From the NCBI GenBank assembly GCA_013239625.1, contig MU056737.1, positions 141,846 through 205,845 on the forward strand: a stretch of DNA of 64,000 nt. Reading direction: 5' to 3'. Of this stretch, positions 28,868 to 57,422 are shown in pieces (positions within the stretch are counted from its first letter, which is position 1; each line of letters starts with the position of its first letter). Position numbers and translations under genes: made by a program. Under the pieces are notes generated by a model, which saw nothing but the letters and a program-made list of their open reading frames with translations, had not been told where the DNA came from and did not search any database. The stretch is from Lama guanicoe (lineage: Eukaryota).

Positions 28868-46807
<17,940 letters not shown>

Positions 46808-48151: not shown

Positions 48152-48279
48152 TCAGTCAATGCTAGGGGCCTGGCTAGGTTCCTTCTGCGTGTCTGTGGGC
48201 TCCTGAAACCCTCCAGGGAACAGATTCTGGGCCCTCTGGGTTCTCCACTGCTGTCTGGGGCTGGAGGCGGGACTGGAGC
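48152..48279 (-). CDS. ATG9B: ATG9B coding exon 13 (to TGA stop)
   Basis: (G)SSPASSPRQQW...NLFPGGFQ...APSID*; a splice donor follows 14 nt after the stop. Confidence 0.94.
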
Positions 48280-51200
48280 CTGATGAGAAATCCATCAGCT
48301 GGGCAGTGCCATGATGCCTGCTGCTCACCCAGAGTCTGTCCCCTGCACACCCCGACCACCTCACCATCACTCGACCAGGAAGGCTTCTCCTCATCCGGCG
48401 AGAGAGTCTGTGGGGGGCTGGACCAGGGCCTGGACAGGGAGGAGGCTGAAGCCTCCCCCCACAGTTCTTGCTGCTGCTGCTGCTGATGGAGCTAAAAGGA
48501 AGGGAGAAGAATGAGGGGTTCCCTTCTGCCCAGCAGCGTGAGGCCCAGCCCCTAGGCTACGTACAGAGGGTGTTGAAACCTCCTACCCAGCTCCTGTTGG
48601 ATAATTTCTTACACTCCAGCCCCCTCCACAGTCTCCATTTGTTTTGAGGCTTTCTCCCCATCTATCTCGCATCCCTCTACTCACCTGGTATAGGTAGATG
48701 GCATGGAGACTCATCTCAGCAGATGCAAGTTCTGGGAGCTGGGCCAGCTTCTGGCCCCCAGTGCCTCCTGGGGACACACAGCTGAAACAGAAGGTGCAAT
48801 AGATCAGAAAGACATGCCCTTTCCCCCCTGCACTCCACAAGGAACGTCAGGCTTTATCTCCTCGTCCTGCTCAGCCCCCCAGTACCCCTGCATTGGTCAG
48901 CCCCACCACCCCTGACCCCTGCATCTCAAGTCCCCACCCCTCACCTTGAGTCCTGGGCAATTCGGGAAATGGAGGCCAGGAGGCTGGCTGTGGCTGCAGC
49001 TGGGCAAGGGGCTGTGGGGCTCAGGTCCTGTGGGGGCAGGAGGGGCTGCACCAAGAGGTTGGCCAGGAAGGTCTCCGGCTGGGAGCAAGAGAAGAGAGGG
49101 TCAGAAGAGAGGACAGAAGGGGAGGGAGGAGGGCTAAGTAAGGTGGGAGAGCAGGCTGAACGAGTGAGTAGGTTAATGCAAAAGGTGAGGCTGAGGGAGG
49201 AGAGAGGAGGGGAGGGGAGAGGAGGGGGCAGGGTGTGAAGGTGGAAGGGCAAACCAAGCTTCAACTCACCAGAGGTGAGGAAGAGTTGCTGAGGACCCCG
49301 GGGGTGGGGGGACTGCGAATGGAGTTGGCGCCCCAGGTGGCTGCATCTTGTTGTACCCGGCCTCGAAGGTGCCCTAGGAACTTGGAGCTGTGGCCTGGGG
49401 GGCGCCATTGTGGATGAACTAGGGAGAACCTCATCAAGGACAGTTCAGTCTTCCCATCCTCGGCACGCTGAGATAGTGAGGCCTCTGTCTGTCCCTCCGA
49501 GAGCCACTGAAAGCAACGACAATCCTTCAAGTGCCGCGAACACTGCTTGTATACCTGCAGTGGGTGCCTCGTGGGGTGGGCAGGATGGAAGACAATAGCC
49601 CCATTTTCCAGGTGAAAGGATGGAGGTCACAATGGGGACTTGCTCAAGATCACCCAAAAACACAGCAGCAGAGCAGAACTTGGGTCCAGATCCAGCACTG
49701 GGATGTAGGCTCAATGTTCTGCCAGCAGGTGCACACTGGATGCCAGGGCCTGCCTTACAGCTTTGGTCAGGAAACCCATCCTTACTCCAGCCCCATCCAC
49801 TGATCAACCTGTTTTCCAGCCATTCTAGCGGTCTTGGCTCCCATTTACTGGTGTCAGGATGTGCTGGAACTCTGTTAGGGCTTTATACACGTCATCTCAT
49901 GTAATCCTCATGATAGCCCTGCACGTCGGTCACTGTCCTCGTTTGACAAACGAGGGCATTAGGTACAGGGAAGTGAGGTGATTAGCTCAAGGTCACAGGT
50001 GGCAAGCCATGGAGCTGGGGGTGGAACCCAGCTCTGCTTTGAGTGAGGCAAGCAAACTCCTACCTAACCACAACCCGGCACAGCCAGGGAAAGGCTCTAA
50101 CCTGAGGGTGGCCGTGGCGCTTCACATCCATAAGGGCAAAGGAACAGATGTCTCCAACCCCGGCCACATCCACAGTGAAGTGATGAAAAAAGTCAATAAT
50201 CTCCAAGGCGCGAGGGCGGAACCAGAAGAGCAGAAACAGTGGGGTGAGGAGAGGGGACAGGAGCTCCTCCGTGAGGGAGACCTGGAGAAGCAGGGGCGAG
50301 GCTGAGAAGGGGTTGCTGAGGGCAACCACACTAGCCAGGCAGGAAACCTCCAACTCCGTCATTCCGTCTTTCCCAGACTCCCGGGATAGCCAGCCCTGAG
50401 CCCGTTTGTCCCCGCCCTCTCCCAGACCTCGAGGTTTACACAGCCTCCTCGGCAGCCCCATTTCAGCCTGGACCCTCACCGCTCGGTACTGCAACAGCCG
50501 CGCCATCTGCCGGTAAGCGCTGGCCTTGCCGGCAGGGCCGGTCTCCTCCGGCAGGTAGTGCATGTGGGCCAAGGCCGCCTGCAGCAGGAGCTGCGGTGAA
50601 CGACTTTGGGCCTGCTCATCCGGAATGAAAGACCTAGAGGGCGGCATCGGGGTGGAGAAGGGGCCGGCGAGTAAAGAGGATGTGCGGGTGGGATGCATTA
50701 GCGGTGGGAGGGGTAGAGATTCGCGAGAGGTTCAGCCCCAGGCCGGAAGAACGCCCCCCTCCCTGGGCATCTCCCACCACACCTGGCCACGGTGGCCAGG
50801 ATCCCGAGGGCAGTCATGGCAGTGAGCACGTGCTCCACGGCGAGCACATCCTCGTCGTAGACGGTGAGCACCAGCAACGCGGCGAAGAGCGCGCCGGCGA
50901 AGAAGACGAGCTGGCGGGCCAGCAGCGCGAGCAGGGGCGCGGGGGGCGCGGCGGCGCGCAAGAAGGCGGCGGCGGGGCGGTAGGCGCGGGCCAGGCGCGC
51001 GCGCAGCTCGTGCGGCAGCTCGTTGAAGTGGCGCAGCTGCAGGCGGGCCAGGCGGGACCAGCGGCGCGTGCCCAGCGCGCCCGGCTCGCGCCGCAGCAGC
51101 TCGGCGTGGCTGTAGAAGGCGTGCAGCACCTGCCAGGCCAGCACCAGAGGGCTCAGCGCCAGGTTCACGACGGCCAGCAGCAGCACCGAGCGCCGCCAGC

Positions 51201-54200
51201 GCGCGGCCAGGGCGGCCCGCTGGTCGCTGCGCTTGTAGGCGTCGGGCAGCTCCCAGCCGCCGCGGAAGAGCGAGAAGGGCCCGCGGAAGAGGAGCAGGTC
51301 GACGTTGAGCGCCAGGCCGCGGCTGAGGAAGGCCACGCTGCCTCCCCAGGGCAGCGCGCAGCGGGCCGGCAGCAGGCCCTTGTTGGCCAGCGCCACCTGG
51401 TAGTTGGTGTAGCGCAGGATGCGATGGTGGACGTCCAGCTCCGTCAGCGGCCTCGGCTGCACGCACAGGCCCCCGCTCCTCTGCAGCGCCAGGAGGCGGG
51501 ACTGCACCTCTGCCCAGGACACTGAGCCGAGCTCCCCCTGAGGAGAGGGGACGGCTGAGAGCCAGCGACCTGGATTCCTCTCCACAGTGGTGCCCACACT
51601 CACCGTGACCAGAGTCCCTGAGTGTCCTCCCGTGCCCACCACTCTCACCCAGTGTCCCTCAGGCATGACACCTGTCACCTTCCGCTCTCTGCCTTCTCGC
51701 CCTCCCTTTACCTTGTCTCTAACAAGGGGAACCCTTACTTCCTCTCATCTGCTTCTGAATTGTGTTCCTCACGCCCCTGCCACTCCTGAGGCCATGAGCC
51801 CTGTGCTTCCCAGGGACACCTCCTAAGCTAAACTCTACGCCTATCTGAGCTCAGCTGCTTAAGAGCAGATTTTCCTGAGCACCCCCTACCACACACACAC
51901 ACACAGAGCCCTACACGTAGAAGGCACATCCCAGCTGCAGGTAACAGGGAAATCCCTCTTCCCCGTTCCTAGGGTACCCACCAACCCAGAAGCCTCACCA
52001 CTTTTTACCTCAGCCTGCTTTGAGAATCCCAGCCCCATCCCATTCTGTCAGATTAACCTTCCTAAGACAATGGCCACATCTGGCCATGGAGGTGAGGGCT
52101 GTCAGATCTCACTCCGATCTCATCTGCAAACCTCATTTTAGCCCAGTTTCACCCAGCTTCCCCAGTCCAGCTTAGTCAAGTCCCTCCAGGCCAGCCTCTC
52201 CAGTCCATCCCAGGGTCTCCCCTTCCCCTGGAAGGAATAGGGGCAATGAGGAAAGAAGGAAGGAGAAAGAAGGGTCAGCTGATTCCCAGCGGAGCAGCGG
52301 TCCAGCTCCTGATCTTCCCTGCCTCCACCCCTGCCCCCGTGACTCTTCCCTGTGCTATGGTTTGTGCTCTCCTACTCAAAGGGGCTTTCTGAAACCTCTC
52401 CCTTTTGCTGTACAGGAGAGCTGTGCAGAAGGTTCTGCACTTCTGAGGGGAGAAGGTAGCCTCTGTGCTTTGCCTTAAGGAAAGAATTTGGGTACAGAGC
52501 CAGAAGGAGTGTGAGCAAGGCAGGGAGGAGAGAAAGAGGAAAGCGTGACCAGGGACAGTGAAGGGGCCTGTGAAGTGGCTTCCTGCAATCAGGGGGAAGG
52601 CCAGAAAGGGAGGCAGGATTACCCACTGGGGACTGGAACTCTCAGATGCAGGCTGGTGGGTCAGTCTCCTCACTGCTGCCCACAGAGTTCAGTGTTTCCC
52701 CCCTCCCTGCCCAAGGCTTGGAATGCGTCCCCACCTCCTACCCTTCCCAGCCCCATCCCAATCCCCCCTGCCCTGTAAAGCCAGATGACTGCCCTTCCTC
52801 TAAATACCCACTGCCTGAACCACAAGCACGTGACCATACATCTTCTATAACCATCTAAATCAACTAAGCTCCACCACAGTAAGGGCCTTGTGTTACAAGT
52901 GGTAACCCACCTCCTAATAATATTCTGGGCCAAGGGTAGGGGTCAGTAAGTCCTTCTGCCCTTTTTCCAGTAGGTCCTTCTGTCTCTGCAGCCCCTCACT
53001 CCTCCCCATCCTCTTCCCCTCTGACGTTGTACCGCTCCTCAGACATGCTCACCCAACTCACCGGGGGAATGTGGAGGGCTTCCCTGTAAAACACTTGGAT
53101 GTCCCAGTAGCTGAAGAGGTTGCAGACAGAGCGAAGCAGCTGGAACAGCCAGAAGGCAGTAGCCAGGATCAGAAGGAAGACCAGCAGAGAGCTGGAGTGG
53201 ATCCTGTGTCGGGTGGGACAGACAGGAAGTAGGGGCCCGGTAGCAAGGGAGACCAGACTTGGGGAGCGATGGGGGTCATTGAGAGGGGACCCAGCCAGGC
53301 CGGTCGTTCTCAAAGTGTGGGCCCTGGGGCTCCCCAGACCCTCGCAAGTATCTACAAGGTCAAAACTTTTCAGATATTAAGGTTTTCTGCCATTTTAATT
53401 TTCATTCTCTCAAGAATATACAGAGGATTTTTCCAGAGGCTACATGACATCACATTCACAGTCAATGGAATGTGTGCTTGGACATTTTCAGGTTTTAAAG
53501 CTGTTCTCAGCTTGAATCTCAAATAAGGTAAATAGAGATAGATTTGATTCCAATAAGCAAAATCTCTTGGGAGTTGAGTTCTCAACTAATTTTAAGTGTA
53601 TTAAAGGTGTCCCAAGACCAAAAACTTGGAGAACAGCTGGTCTAGACCAAAAGACACAAGCATCTGCTAGTCCCCTCCATCACCTCCCCCAGCGGCTGTC
53701 ACTCACCGCTGGGCACACTGGGATGAGGGTAGGATGGCATCCGACAAGGTCACTTTGCTGTGGAGCAGCCCAGGTCTTGTGCGGTTATTTGGTTGGTTGG
53801 CAAAGAGAACATTGTAATCCACGCAGCGAAGGAGGAAGGTGGTGAAGGTGACAATGAAAATGAATTGTCTGGGACGGCAAGGAGTGCAGTGGTCAGGCCC
53901 AAGGGCCAGTGGGCTCCAGCCCCAGCCTCCAGACTGGCCTGGTTAACCCAACCTGCTGAGCCCTGGGGCTGCCTGGGGAGGCAGTCGGGGAACTAGAAGC
54001 AGCAGGCGCTACTGAGGAAATGAGAGGAAGAGTTTGGGGCCAGGGACAAGCATCTCACCCCAGCTGGAAGACATCCTCCAGCAGGATACAGGCAAAGCCG
54101 CTCCTCTGGTGGTAGCTGTAGATGTGGCTGCCCGTCAAGAAATAAGCCTGAGGTGTGATGATGGGCCTTTCCTGAGGACGCCTCCCCCTCCCTCCCCCAA

Positions 54201-54919
54201 GTCCCCAACCCACTGCACCCCTGGCTCCCTGCCTCCAGTGCCACTGCTGCCAGGCCAAGCACAAAAGGATATCTTGGTGAAGAAGCTGTCCAGGTTCTGG
54301 ATATGGTGCCAGGAGCCTGGGCACAGAGGGAAGAGCATGGGGACTCGGCTCTCACCGGGACAATTCTCCATGTCCTCAAGCTACTGCCAGAGGCCTAGTC
54401 CAGAGGAAACTCTGGAGCCCCCAGACCCTCCCCAGCCCCCGCCACTACCCACTCACCTCGGAGTCCTTCAGGTACATGAAGCAGGGGCTGCTGCTCCTCC
54501 CCGTGGAGGGGTGAATCTTGGGACCCCTCAGGGTCACAGTCCTCCAGCCGCTCATAATCCTGCTCAGGGATCAGAGGGCCTATCCGAAGCCCAGGAAGGT
54601 CCTGGGGGCACCGGCATGGGGGAGGGGGAGTCACCGAGGCCAAGGGTGGGGCAGAGTGGGAACCCCAGGAGGGGGGTACAGAGATGGGTGTCATCGCAGG
54701 CCTGGCCTGCATTGTGGGGGTGGCTGGGGTGGAGATGGCACTATGGTGAGGCTGAGAAGCCCCTGACACCTGCACCGCTGGGCAGGGGGGCCCCAGGGCT
54801 GAAGGAGGAGCCGAGGACGGGGCACTTCTTGTATGAGGGGCAGGGGACAGAGAGAAGATGGAGACCCTCCCTCCCCCAGGCCCCCGACTTGGAGGAGGAG
54901 GAAGAGGAGGCAGTGGCAT
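48152..54919 (-). CDS. ATG9B: Autophagy-related protein 9B (lipid scramblase), 13 coding exons, 2688 nt / 895 aa from first in-frame ATG
   Basis: Spliced frame gives ...PEQDYERLEDCDPEGSQDSP...GSWHHIQNLDSFFTKIYSYHQR...LTELDVHHRILRYTNY...YDEDVLAVEHV...VGDICSFALMDVKRHGHPQW...EDGKTELSLMRF...; exon phases are consistent. Confidence 0.97.
48365..48491 (-). CDS. ATG9B: ATG9B coding exon 12
   Basis: LHQQQQQQELWGE...EKPSWSSD; 127 nt. Confidence 0.95.
48685..48781 (-). CDS. ATG9B: ATG9B coding exon 11
   Basis: CVSPGGTGGQKLAQLPELASAEMSLHAIYLYQ; 97 nt. Confidence 0.95.
48945..49078 (-). CDS. ATG9B: ATG9B coding exon 10
   Basis: PETFLANL...ISRIAQDS; 134 nt. Confidence 0.95.
49270..49506 (-). CDS. ATG9B: ATG9B coding exon 9
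   Basis: WLSEGQTEAS...EDGKTELSLMRF...SSSPL; 237 nt. Confidence 0.96.
49865..50040 (-). mobile_element. MIR SINE in ATG9B intron 8
   Basis: atctcatgtaatcctcatgatagccctg...gtgattagctcaaggtcacag...ggaacccagctctg. Confidence 0.7.
50102..50281 (-). CDS. ATG9B: ATG9B coding exon 8
   Basis: VSLTEELLSPLLTPL...DVKRHGHPQ; 180 nt. Confidence 0.96.
50480..50633 (-). CDS. ATG9B: ATG9B coding exon 7
   Basis: SFIPDEQ...ARLLQYRA; 154 nt. Confidence 0.96.
50783..51537 (-). CDS. ATG9B: ATG9B coding exon 6 (CpG-rich)
   Basis: GELGSVSWAEVQ...LGILATVA; 755 nt. Confidence 0.97.
53062..53203 (-). CDS. ATG9B: ATG9B coding exon 5
   Basis: IHSSSLLVFLL...YWDIQVFYREALHIPP; 142 nt. Confidence 0.96.
53300..53640. mobile_element. 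hAT-Charlie-type non-autonomous DNA transposon (MER) in ATG9B intron 4
   Basis: Imperfect terminal inverted repeats CCGGTCGTTCTCAAAGT / ACTTGGAGAACAGCTG followed by Charlie-type target GTCTAGAC; AT-rich interior. Confidence 0.65.
53707..53868 (-). CDS. ATG9B: ATG9B coding exon 4
   Basis: QFIFIVTFTTFLLRCVDYNVLFAN...SQCAQ; 162 nt. Confidence 0.96.
54059..54123 (-). CDS. ATG9B: ATG9B coding exon 3
   Basis: IYSYHQRSGFACILLEDVFQL; AC acceptor; 65 nt. Confidence 0.95.
54124..54272 (-). other. ATG9B: U12-type (minor spliceosome) AT-AC intron, ATG9B intron 2
   Basis: 5' site ATATCCTTT, branch site TTTCTTGAC (54142-54134) ~11 nt from the terminal AC; the splice preserves the frame K|I. Confidence 0.93.
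54273..54316 (-). CDS. ATG9B: ATG9B coding exon 2
   Basis: (G)SWHHIQNLDSFFTK; followed by ATATCCTTT U12 donor; 44 nt. Confidence 0.95.
54457..54919 (-). CDS. ATG9B: ATG9B coding exon 1
   Basis: [10 protein letters not shown]...LLHVPEGLR; donor G|GTGAGT; in-frame TGA just upstream, so the start codon is uncertain. Confidence 0.85.
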
Positions 54920-56713
54920 GGGGAGGAGGGGCACTGATCAGGAAGGATGGGAGATGCTGCAGTTCCCGCCGAGGTCTGGCTGAGCAGGGACTTCAACAAG
55001 ACCAGTGACAACAACAGCCTGGTGACTCAGGTGGGGCAGGCCTCAGGCGTCCCAACTCGTAGTCACCTGTCTGACCACTCACACCTCTTCCAGGGCAACC
55101 TGCAGCCAAACCTCTTAGGGCCCCACCTCTAGCCTGGCAGGGACAGCAGCTGGGGAGGCAGGAGCTGAAGAACATCAGATCGAAGGAGATCCCTGCTGTT
55201 CCATCTTCAGACTCCCAGTGGATTTCAGGGGAGGCCAGAGGGCAGCCGCCAATAACAAAAGCAAAGAGAATCCTATTAAGGACTATAGGACTCTGGGGTC
55301 AAGATAGTAAATCTTTGATTTCTTAAAACCTTATCTCTCCTCCCTGCATATACACACACAGAGTGATCAACAGAGAAATGCTTTAAGACAAAAAACAGTA
55401 AGAAAGAAAAAAAAAGACAAGAAAGGCTGTATGTTTTGTGTGTGTGACAGTACTAAGGAAGGGAAAAGGGGGAGACTGCCTGACTTTGCAACCAGGTTGG
55501 GGGAAACTAAGGAGAGTAAAATAGGAGAGGTAATTATCTTGGATGTGAGATGGTTCTGGGAGCTTACAGTAGAAAAGTGGGGCTTCTTGGATGCGCCGCT
55601 ATGTTTACTTGTTTACTTATTTATCCTCTTGAAACCCTCTCCCCTAAATCCTGATCCAGTTTCTGGGGCCTTCTGAGAAGCATCAGGGTTGATGGCAGAG
55701 GGCAGCTGAGGGCATGGAATTTGGAAGGATAATTTCGGTGCCCCATGAATGAACTGACTGAGTTGACTTCCTTGTTGTCACCTCAACGAGGAGGCGGAGG
55801 CCCAGGCAACTGGTTTGGTGGCTTGTCCAACGCCATTCTTGAGTCCCTGAATCATCAGGCTACCTACTGAAGGCCATTCCAGAGGTGCTGACTCAGCCAC
55901 CCAGGTGTCAGAGCCACCAGGGCTTAGGCTCCAGGGCTGCTGTAGAGACCAGTATGCAGGAACCGGAGAGAGAGGAACAGAACATTTCCCATGTTGTCCA
56001 CCAGAGGAACTTAGAGGCAGTCGAGGAATTGCTCACAAAATTTGAGTCCAGGTACACCTATTTTTTCCTTGCGCCTCCTTCCTGTGAGGGGCATTGTCAC
56101 AGTAGCTCAGGACTTGCATAGTTTTATCCCCTAGCAGGAGGCTGAACTATAAAAACAGGATTCCTAGTGCCCAGAATGGAATCCCACACTGCAGAGGGGC
56201 TAGGAAATTTCCATGATCTCTCTGAGATGTCTGTCAAGATGGGTTACAAGGGGTTTCCTCTGGTCTTTTCCCAACCTCATTCACCCTGAGATACTCCACC
56301 ATACTCACTTTAGGACTCTCCTATATCCCTCCGCACTCAGCTCAACCTCAGACTAATCCTGGCACATTTTCCTACCGAGTTTCACTCCAGATTCATCAAT
56401 GGACAGCCTTCCTACCACCACCCCCAATTCAAGTCCGTTTATTATAAAGGAGACTTTTCCCTGCCAGGCATTTGGAGGGGAAGGAGGAGACGGATGAATG
56501 AGACAGAGCCACTACCCAAAAGGAAGTCACAGCCCAGTGAGGGAGACAGCTATGCAAACAAATCATTACACATAAGAAATAAATAAGCACACAAAGGTAC
56601 AAGAGTTGTGCTTTGGCAGCCTCAGGCAAGCGAGCCTGATATACCGTGAGGAAGGCATCTGCTGGGGAGACGGAACAGAGGCCGTGCGGTGATAAGCTAC
56701 AGTGCCTCCACAC

Positions 56714-56989: not shown

Positions 56990-57327
56990 TATGGATACCC
57001 CGGGGCGGGGGGCGTACAGCGCACACCCTCAAAACGTCACTCCAGAGCCTACTCCAGCGGCGGTCAGAGGACGGTGCCACATCCTGCTTGGCCCCAGGCC
57101 AGGACTGGGGGCGGGTTATAGGCGGCTCTCTCCAATCACAGCTCCAGAAGAAGACGAGCGAACAAGGTGTTCTCCAATCACAGCTTGCAACGAAATTGAC
57201 GTTTCTTTCCGCCAATCATCGCCAAGTGGCGAGGGGGTTGTCGGGATGGGGGCCGGAGCCAACATGGAGCCCTCAATGGGATAAGGGTGAAACCGCTGCT
57301 GCTGGCTGCTCCTGTTCTCCCTCGACC
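56990..57327 (+). promoter_or_regulatory. ABCB8: ABCB8 CpG-island promoter with three CCAAT (NF-Y) boxes and GC boxes
   Basis: CCAAT at 57132, 57174 and 57212; GGGGCGGG at ~57002 and ~57108; CpG-rich. Confidence 0.85.
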
Positions 57328-57422
57328 ATGCTGGTGCACTTATTTCGGGTCGGGATTCGGGGTGGCCCTGTCCCAGGCAGGCCGCTGCTACCCCTCCGCT
57401 TCCAGACATTCTCGGCCGTCAG
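57328..57422 (+). CDS. ABCB8: ABCB8 coding exon 1
   Basis: [31 protein letters not shown] (mitochondrial presequence-like); 95 nt. Confidence 0.95.

What the first reader, a model, noticed from the sequence alone, without database searches (positions are those of the whole stretch)
54917..54945. ATG9B appears to have lost its ancestral start codon and Arg-rich N-terminal ~29 residues
Seen: on the minus strand the sequence reads CCATCCTTCC TGA TCA GTG CCC CTC CTC CCC ATG CCA. An in-frame stop lies directly before S-V-P-L-L-P-M-P-L-P, and no MxxRxGWGG-coding sequence is present upstream. Known (recalled): human ATG9B starts MVSRMGWGGRRRRLGRWGDLGPGSVPLLPMPLPP (924 aa) and mouse has a similar Arg-rich start. 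This segment has been proposed as a mitochondrial-targeting-like sequence. The spliced ORF from the first remaining ATG (54919) is 895 aa, equal to 924 minus 29. Inference: a ~69-nt deletion, possibly joined at GAT microhomology (ctGATgg... to ...gGATc), removed the original start. Initiation must then use the Met30 equivalent, which has weak context (CCC ATG C), or later Mets. This would be a natural N-terminal truncation of a placenta-enriched scramblase in this lineage.
Basis: partly seen in the sequence, partly recalled or inferred. Interest (0 to 1): 0.7.

Follow-up and report, generated by a model that had tools for sequence, protein, structure and literature searches.

The report
Start-loss deletion in one camelid ATG9B
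This camelid genome assembly lacks the short stretch that holds the start of the autophagy gene ATG9B, but alpaca and all three camel species have it, so it is likely a rare deletion in one animal or population (or an assembly error) that would shorten an otherwise intact protein, not a camelid trait.

Summary
The gap is real in the assembly. A stop codon abuts Ser24 of ATG9B, and residues 1-23 are found nowhere else in the genome search. It is not lineage-wide: alpaca, Bactrian, dromedary and wild camel records all carry the intact MVRRMGWGG start. The gap is probably about 93 nt, not 69, because nine codons' worth of 5' UTR seen in horse, carnivores, bats and whales is also missing. Residues 24-924 are intact, with two substitutions against alpaca. 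The lost start codon also appears to serve as the splice donor of an annotated 790-aa isoform, so two annotated isoform starts would go; Met30, Met99 and Met105 remain in frame. Best reading: a real, rare deletion allele in a G-rich tract of a gene under relaxed selection (0.55). Rival: assembly artefact (0.37). Reads across the junction were not examined, so this stays open. The scan's earlier notes held nothing on it. Modest interest.

The parts
54938..54940 (-). Deletion junction; reads as a TGA codon in the ATG9B frame. It now lies in the 5' UTR and is not a premature stop.
   Evidence: gap of 31 codons against carnivore and bat text
54457..54937 (-). Remaining coding part of ATG9B exon 1 (Ser24 to residue 184), one substitution against alpaca (P137L)
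54917..54919 (-). Met30, first remaining in-frame ATG, weak context; would give 895 aa
   Evidence: Met in 55 of 79 records
54710..54712 (-). Met99, A at -3; start of the annotated alpaca 826-aa isoform X2 (P0111)
   Evidence: Met in only 8 of 79 records
54692..54694 (-). Met105, G at -3; proposed alternative initiator of human ATG9B
   Evidence: PMC10936676 passage; Met in 53 of 79 records
54599..54604 (-). Internal acceptor used by the annotated 790-aa isoform (Met1 joined to residue 136); its donor lay in the deleted stretch (inferred)
54557..54562 (-). Second internal acceptor matching the annotated alpaca 776-aa isoform (Met1 joined to residue 150)
48152..54316 (-). ATG9B exons 2-13, in frame, one substitution against alpaca P0116 (V747I), AT-AC intron after exon 2, stop at 48154-48152
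28868..46801 (+). NOS3, tail-to-tail neighbour, used as local control of assembly quality: 26 coding exons without an in-exon shift

Best explanation
This assembly lacks the first 23 codons of ATG9B, and probably about 24 more bases of its 5' UTR, most likely because the sequenced animal carries a real but rare deletion allele rather than a camelid-wide change. The lost stretch is G-rich, and the junction can share only 2-3 bases with either end, which would fit end-joining repair at a G-rich tract (inferred). The allele would lose the 924-aa start and, because the start codon also appears to act as a splice donor, the 790-aa and 776-aa isoforms too. Scanning ribosomes would meet Met30 (weak), Met99 and Met105, all in frame with no out-of-frame ATG between them, so the likely products are N-terminally shortened but complete scramblases. 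The allele is therefore predicted to be hypomorphic or isoform-shifting, not null.
For: Shown: gap and intact remainder; intact start in four camelid species; no second copy in the genome. Local assembly looks accurate: no indel in ATG9B residues 24-924 against alpaca and 26 NOS3 exons on single diagonals against sheep, and no N at the junction. At most 2 bases 5' of Ser24 can match the missing Gly21-Pro22-Gly23 codons, so there is no long overlap of the kind that mis-joins contig ends. Against whale DNA the junction parses as one deletion plus one extra base, or as 25 + 68 nt with 2- and 3-base microhomologies (by eye). ATG9B is under relaxed selection in mammals (PMC13020874, passages), lost in cetaceans, turtles and crocodilians (PMC13299143, main text), and truncated knock-in mice are viable and fertile (PMC13299270, abstract). 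One of 14 well-matching DNA runs holds 0.95 of the sampled words, against 0.89-0.90 for the other 13, which fits a rare shared haplotype.
Against: No read or contig was seen to span the junction. Even the best run lacks about 5 of 99 words, close to the 3 expected from the junction alone, so no run may carry it; if that run were the source animal, this would point to an artefact. The genome is in 55,231 pieces. The lost tract is G-rich, and older camel gene models (P0076, P0099, P0100) also lack the 5' part of exon 1 although later records of those species have it. No camelid exon-1 product from sequencing-run contigs was among 28 hits (only the 7,987 best candidates were scored). No camelid DNA of the intact allele was obtained, so the exact size and junction are inferred from other mammals. 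Which Met is used was not tested.
Confidence: 0.55

Rival explanations
1. Assembly artefact: coverage dropped over the G-rich start of exon 1 and the assembler or gap filler joined the flanks; the animal has a normal ATG9B.
For: Draft genome of 55,231 pieces. All four annotated camelid species are intact. Older camel models and some other draft-based records (P0055, P0066, P0079, P0080) have odd or missing starts here, though that may reflect gene prediction. None of 14 DNA runs holds all sampled words. G-runs at this spot vary among whales.
Against: No N and no long overlap at the junction. The GC-rich exon 6, partly missing in the older alpaca record P0002, is complete here, as are all NOS3 exons.
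Confidence: 0.37
2. The deletion is fixed or common in one South American camelid species that has no annotated protein in the collection (llama, guanaco or vicuna).
For: No record of these three species was seen; 15 of 29 members of the relevant cluster were listed. The exon-1 sequence is alpaca-like, not Camelus-like.
Against: The 14 best DNA runs come from four organism labels and six studies; 13 sit at 0.89-0.90 and only one of three runs of organism A stands higher. A fixed allele should give a group of near-complete holders. This is indirect, since the missing words were not identified.
Confidence: 0.06
3. An upstream exon supplies a new start, so the protein is not simply truncated.
For: The junction places a CAG after 14 of 17 pyrimidines, within the range of the gene's real acceptors (10-17) and among the top 12 of 216 AGs nearby. 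Gene models of horse, manatee and dromedary use upstream sequence homologous to 55835 and 57220-57330.
Against: No transcript evidence; those models are predictions. This would modify the consequence, not the deletion.
Confidence: 0.02

Closest known systems
Alpaca ATG9B isoform X1 (XP_072820286.1, P0116; ATG9 family PF04109)
   Same: Residues 24-924 identical except P137L and V747I; YERL sorting motif at 151-154; 13 coding exons.
   Different: Residues 1-23 and the start codon are absent in the window.
ATG9B pseudogenisation in cetaceans (PMC13299143)
   Same: Damage to ATG9B in a cetartiodactyl; exon-1 frameshifts in baleen whales, two of them in the G-run just after the start codon.
   Different: Here no frameshift or premature stop lies in the remaining 901 codons, and the change is not shared by related species. 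'Alpaca', 'Vicugna' and 'Lama' do not occur in that paper's text or supplement; 'camel' occurs 5 times in the supplement, the 2 places shown being ostrich.
Engineered human ATG9B deltaN104 (PMC13322376)
   Same: Initiation at Met99 or Met105 would give nearly the same protein; deltaN104 keeps LC3 lipidation and loses most mitochondrial association (passages).
   Different: Initiation at Met30 keeps 75 of those 104 residues; the paper does not map the signal to residues 1-29 in the passages seen, and the data come from overexpression in tumour cells.
G-tract deletions repaired by polymerase theta end joining (recalled, no call)
   Same: Size near 100 bp, G-rich lost tract, 2-3 base microhomology or a one-base insertion.
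   Different: Camelid DNA of the intact allele was not seen, so G-quadruplex potential and the true junction are not established.

Membership tests
ATG9B orthologue | Intact ATG9 core and C-terminus | tested here: met
   Residues 24-924 match alpaca P0116 with 2 substitutions
ATG9B orthologue | Tail-to-tail with NOS3 | tested here: met
   NOS3 at 28868-46801 on +, ATG9B ends at 48152 on -
ATG9B orthologue | ABCB8 on the other side | not tested
   No search made for ABCB8
ATG9B orthologue | Mammalian N-terminal extension beginning MV[RS] | tested here: not met
   Residues 1-23 absent; present in 79 of 108 records of 700 aa or more (the 29 left out are short isoforms, other starts, monotremes, and two dropped by my filter)
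ATG9B pseudogene (cetacean type) | Frameshift, premature stop or broken splice site in the coding sequence | tested here: not met
   None in residues 24-924
Camelid-lineage truncation | Other camelids lack the same segment | tested here: not met
   8 of 17 camelid records, four species, have the intact start; none starts at Met30
Real germline deletion allele | Reads or independent contigs span the junction | not tested
   No reads were examined; word shares are compatible with either answer
Overlap mis-join by an assembler | Long shared sequence at the junction | tested here: not met
   At most 2 bases on the coding side; 2-3 bases against whale DNA
Microhomology-mediated end-joining scar | Short microhomology or templated insert at a G-rich tract | tested here: inconclusive
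   Fits when parsed against whale DNA, but the camelid intact allele was not available

The most novel reading that the evidence does not exclude
A real start-loss allele of ATG9B segregates in South American camelids. It removes in one step the conserved Arg-rich N-terminus and a start codon that doubles as a splice donor, giving living carriers of a natural N-terminal truncation of a scramblase expressed in placenta, skin and hair. Carriers would test which Met initiates ATG9B, whether residues 1-29 carry the mitochondrial signal, and whether fibre or fertility is affected.
Probability: 0.3. Interest if true: 0.45.

Novelty: new member of a known kind. Interest (0 to 1): 0.25.

Why it matters
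If real and segregating, it is a natural allele for two open questions named in the literature: which Met starts ATG9B (PMC10936676 suggests Met105 and calls this untested) and what the mammal-specific N-terminal extension does (PMC13322376). ATG9B protein is found in hair and skin appendages (PMC13299143), which is relevant to fibre animals. It does not show an evolutionary change of camelids, and loss of ATG9B function is already known to be tolerated in several lineages, so the surprise is limited. If it is an artefact, it marks the G-rich start of exon 1 as a trouble spot for annotation.

Tried and rejected
Camelid-wide truncation: rejected. Missing segment elsewhere in the genome: not found (only 54 candidates scored, small unassembled pieces cannot be excluded). 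Pseudogene: rejected. A clean 69-nt deletion: does not fit the spacing in horse, carnivores, bats (9 residues between the HP[SY] motif and Met in all 17 records where the pattern matched) or five whales, unless camelids lost that UTR piece earlier. Search for camelid exon-1 products from run contigs: none among 28 hits or among the members listed for 9 clusters. Reading the word shares as proof: rejected, since junction and one SNP each predict about 3 lost words. Literature: six searches listed no paper on ATG9B in camelids or on the short spliced isoform; one search returned camelid papers with 0 ATG9B occurrences among the 25 listed of 7,192, so this is a weak negative, and subscription journals are not covered. 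Supplements of the other four papers were not read. Earlier scan notes: nothing relevant. No fold was run, as the region is predicted disordered (PMC10936676 passage).

Full report
Observation. On the minus strand a TGA at 54940-54938 directly precedes the codons for SVPLLPM. No reading frame of 54300-55600 contains the usual ATG9B start, and there is no N near the junction. The locus is single-copy by DNA search. A protein search of the own genome with alpaca residues 1-45 hit this locus only from residue 23; the other 26 of 27 matches were 39-55% identical low-complexity hits.

The rest of the gene. Chaining alpaca P0116 on the window places residues 24-924 in 13 exons with two substitutions, P137L and V747I, and a stop at the end. 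Eleven downstream exons have AG acceptors, and the intron after exon 2 is of the AT-AC type described for this gene (PMC13299143). From Met30 the product would be 895 aa. This is not a pseudogene.

Not a camelid trait. The exon-1 search returned 104 proteins. Of 17 camelid records seen, 8 begin MVRRMG: alpaca (XP_006211394.1, XP_072820286.1), Bactrian, dromedary and wild camel. The other 9 are shorter isoforms or older models, and none begins at Met30. Pig, warthog, hippo and ruminant records are intact as well. Across 108 records of 700 aa or more, 79 have the MV[RS] start; residues 1-23 average 86% identity to alpaca, against 66% for residues 61-134. The window's exon 1 is alpaca-like. No llama, guanaco or vicuna protein was seen, and only 15 of 29 members of the main cluster were listed.

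Size and junction. Proteins with in-frame upstream text show 9 residues between the HP[SY] motif and Met1 in all 17 records where the pattern matched (horse, dog, cat-like, bats), and the alignment leaves a 31-codon gap in the window. Whale DNA in the supplement of PMC13299143 has the same spacing (counted by eye). The net loss is therefore about 93 nt if camelids keep the ancestral UTR, which I could not check. Against whale DNA the junction reads either as one 94-nt deletion with one added base, or as 25 + 68 nt with 2- and 3-base microhomologies that leave a few bases of the start context. At most 2 bases 5' of Ser24 can match the missing codons under any codon choice. The lost tract is G-rich: 15 of 23 residues are Gly, Trp or Arg, and whales have variable G-runs there. 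That short microhomology at a G-tract suggests end-joining repair is my inference from recalled knowledge.

Consequence (inferred). The annotated 790-aa isoform equals Met1 plus residues 136-924, and the 776-aa isoform Met1 plus residues 150-924. Both need a donor right after the start codon, which the Val2 codon provides; whale DNA reads ATG then GTGAG there. An M-D[PH]PGLR junction occurs in 13 records, from camelids, warthog, dog, fox, raccoon dog, horse, grey whale, a rodent, hedgehog and tamandua, and the wild-camel 790-aa sequence is also on record from run contigs. The deletion removes this start and donor; both acceptors remain. The ATGs left are Met30 (C at -3 and +4), Met99 (A at -3) and Met105 (G at -3), with no out-of-frame ATG between them. 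Alpaca isoform X2 already starts at Met99. Human Met105 has been proposed as a possible initiator (PMC10936676, passage). Human deltaN104 keeps LC3 lipidation, loses most mitochondrial association and still induces PARP cleavage (PMC13322376, passages). A shortened, working scramblase is the likely outcome.

Real or artefact. For real: no long overlap, no N, and clean neighbours, with all 26 NOS3 coding exons on single diagonals against sheep NOS3 (a 15-residue gap at the exon 1/2 border is covered by ungapped matches). The gene is under relaxed selection (PMC13020874), lost in three amniote clades, and truncated mice are viable and fertile, although human biallelic variants are linked to disease (PMC13299270, abstract). 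For artefact: a draft of 55,231 pieces, a G-rich tract, and older camel models that lack the 5' part of exon 1. Among 24 runs listed, 14 DNA runs hold most words: one at 0.95, 13 at 0.89-0.90. Junction and one SNP each predict about 3 lost words, so the top run may share the deletion, share only SNPs, or be the source animal lacking the junction. Reads across the junction were not examined, which leaves this question open. A search for exon-1 products from run contigs gave no camelid hit among 28.

What was read. PMC13299143: parts 1-3 of 5 (whole main text, start of references), term searches, and part 15 of 17 of its supplement. PMC13322376, PMC10936676, PMC13020874: passages around search terms. 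PMC13299270: abstract and outline. Six literature searches listed nothing on ATG9B in camelids.

Verdict. Observation partly confirmed; lineage claim not supported; most likely a rare deletion allele (0.55), artefact next (0.37). Interest 0.25.

Noticed in passing
window 54599-54604 and 54557-54562 (-); records P0110, P0113, P0115, P0117 and others: ATG9B's start codon appears to double as a splice donor across mammals, giving a 790-aa isoform without the Pro-rich, mitochondria-associated N-terminal extension (13 records). One search listed no paper on it.
   Followed up: partly
window 54933-54956 (-): The junction creates an acceptor-like CAG after 14 of 17 pyrimidines; use not tested.
   Followed up: partly
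window 54596-54598 (-): P137L, two to four bases into the internal acceptor's exon; Leu occurs in 0 of 79 aligned records. Could mark the same haplotype as the deletion.
   Followed up: partly
window 55740-55836 (-): Sequence homologous to the first exon of a horse gene model (P0095, MALDKP...), here with an early stop; seen by eye.
   Followed up: no
window 57180-57340 (-): CpG-rich stretch whose translation matches the starts of dromedary (P0099) and manatee (P0056) gene models; possible distal promoter or exon.
   Followed up: no
window 55175-55349 (-): Three upstream ATGs with short ORFs of 8, 9 and 60 codons, one in strong context at 55204; position relative to the transcription start unknown.
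   Followed up: no
   Followed up: no
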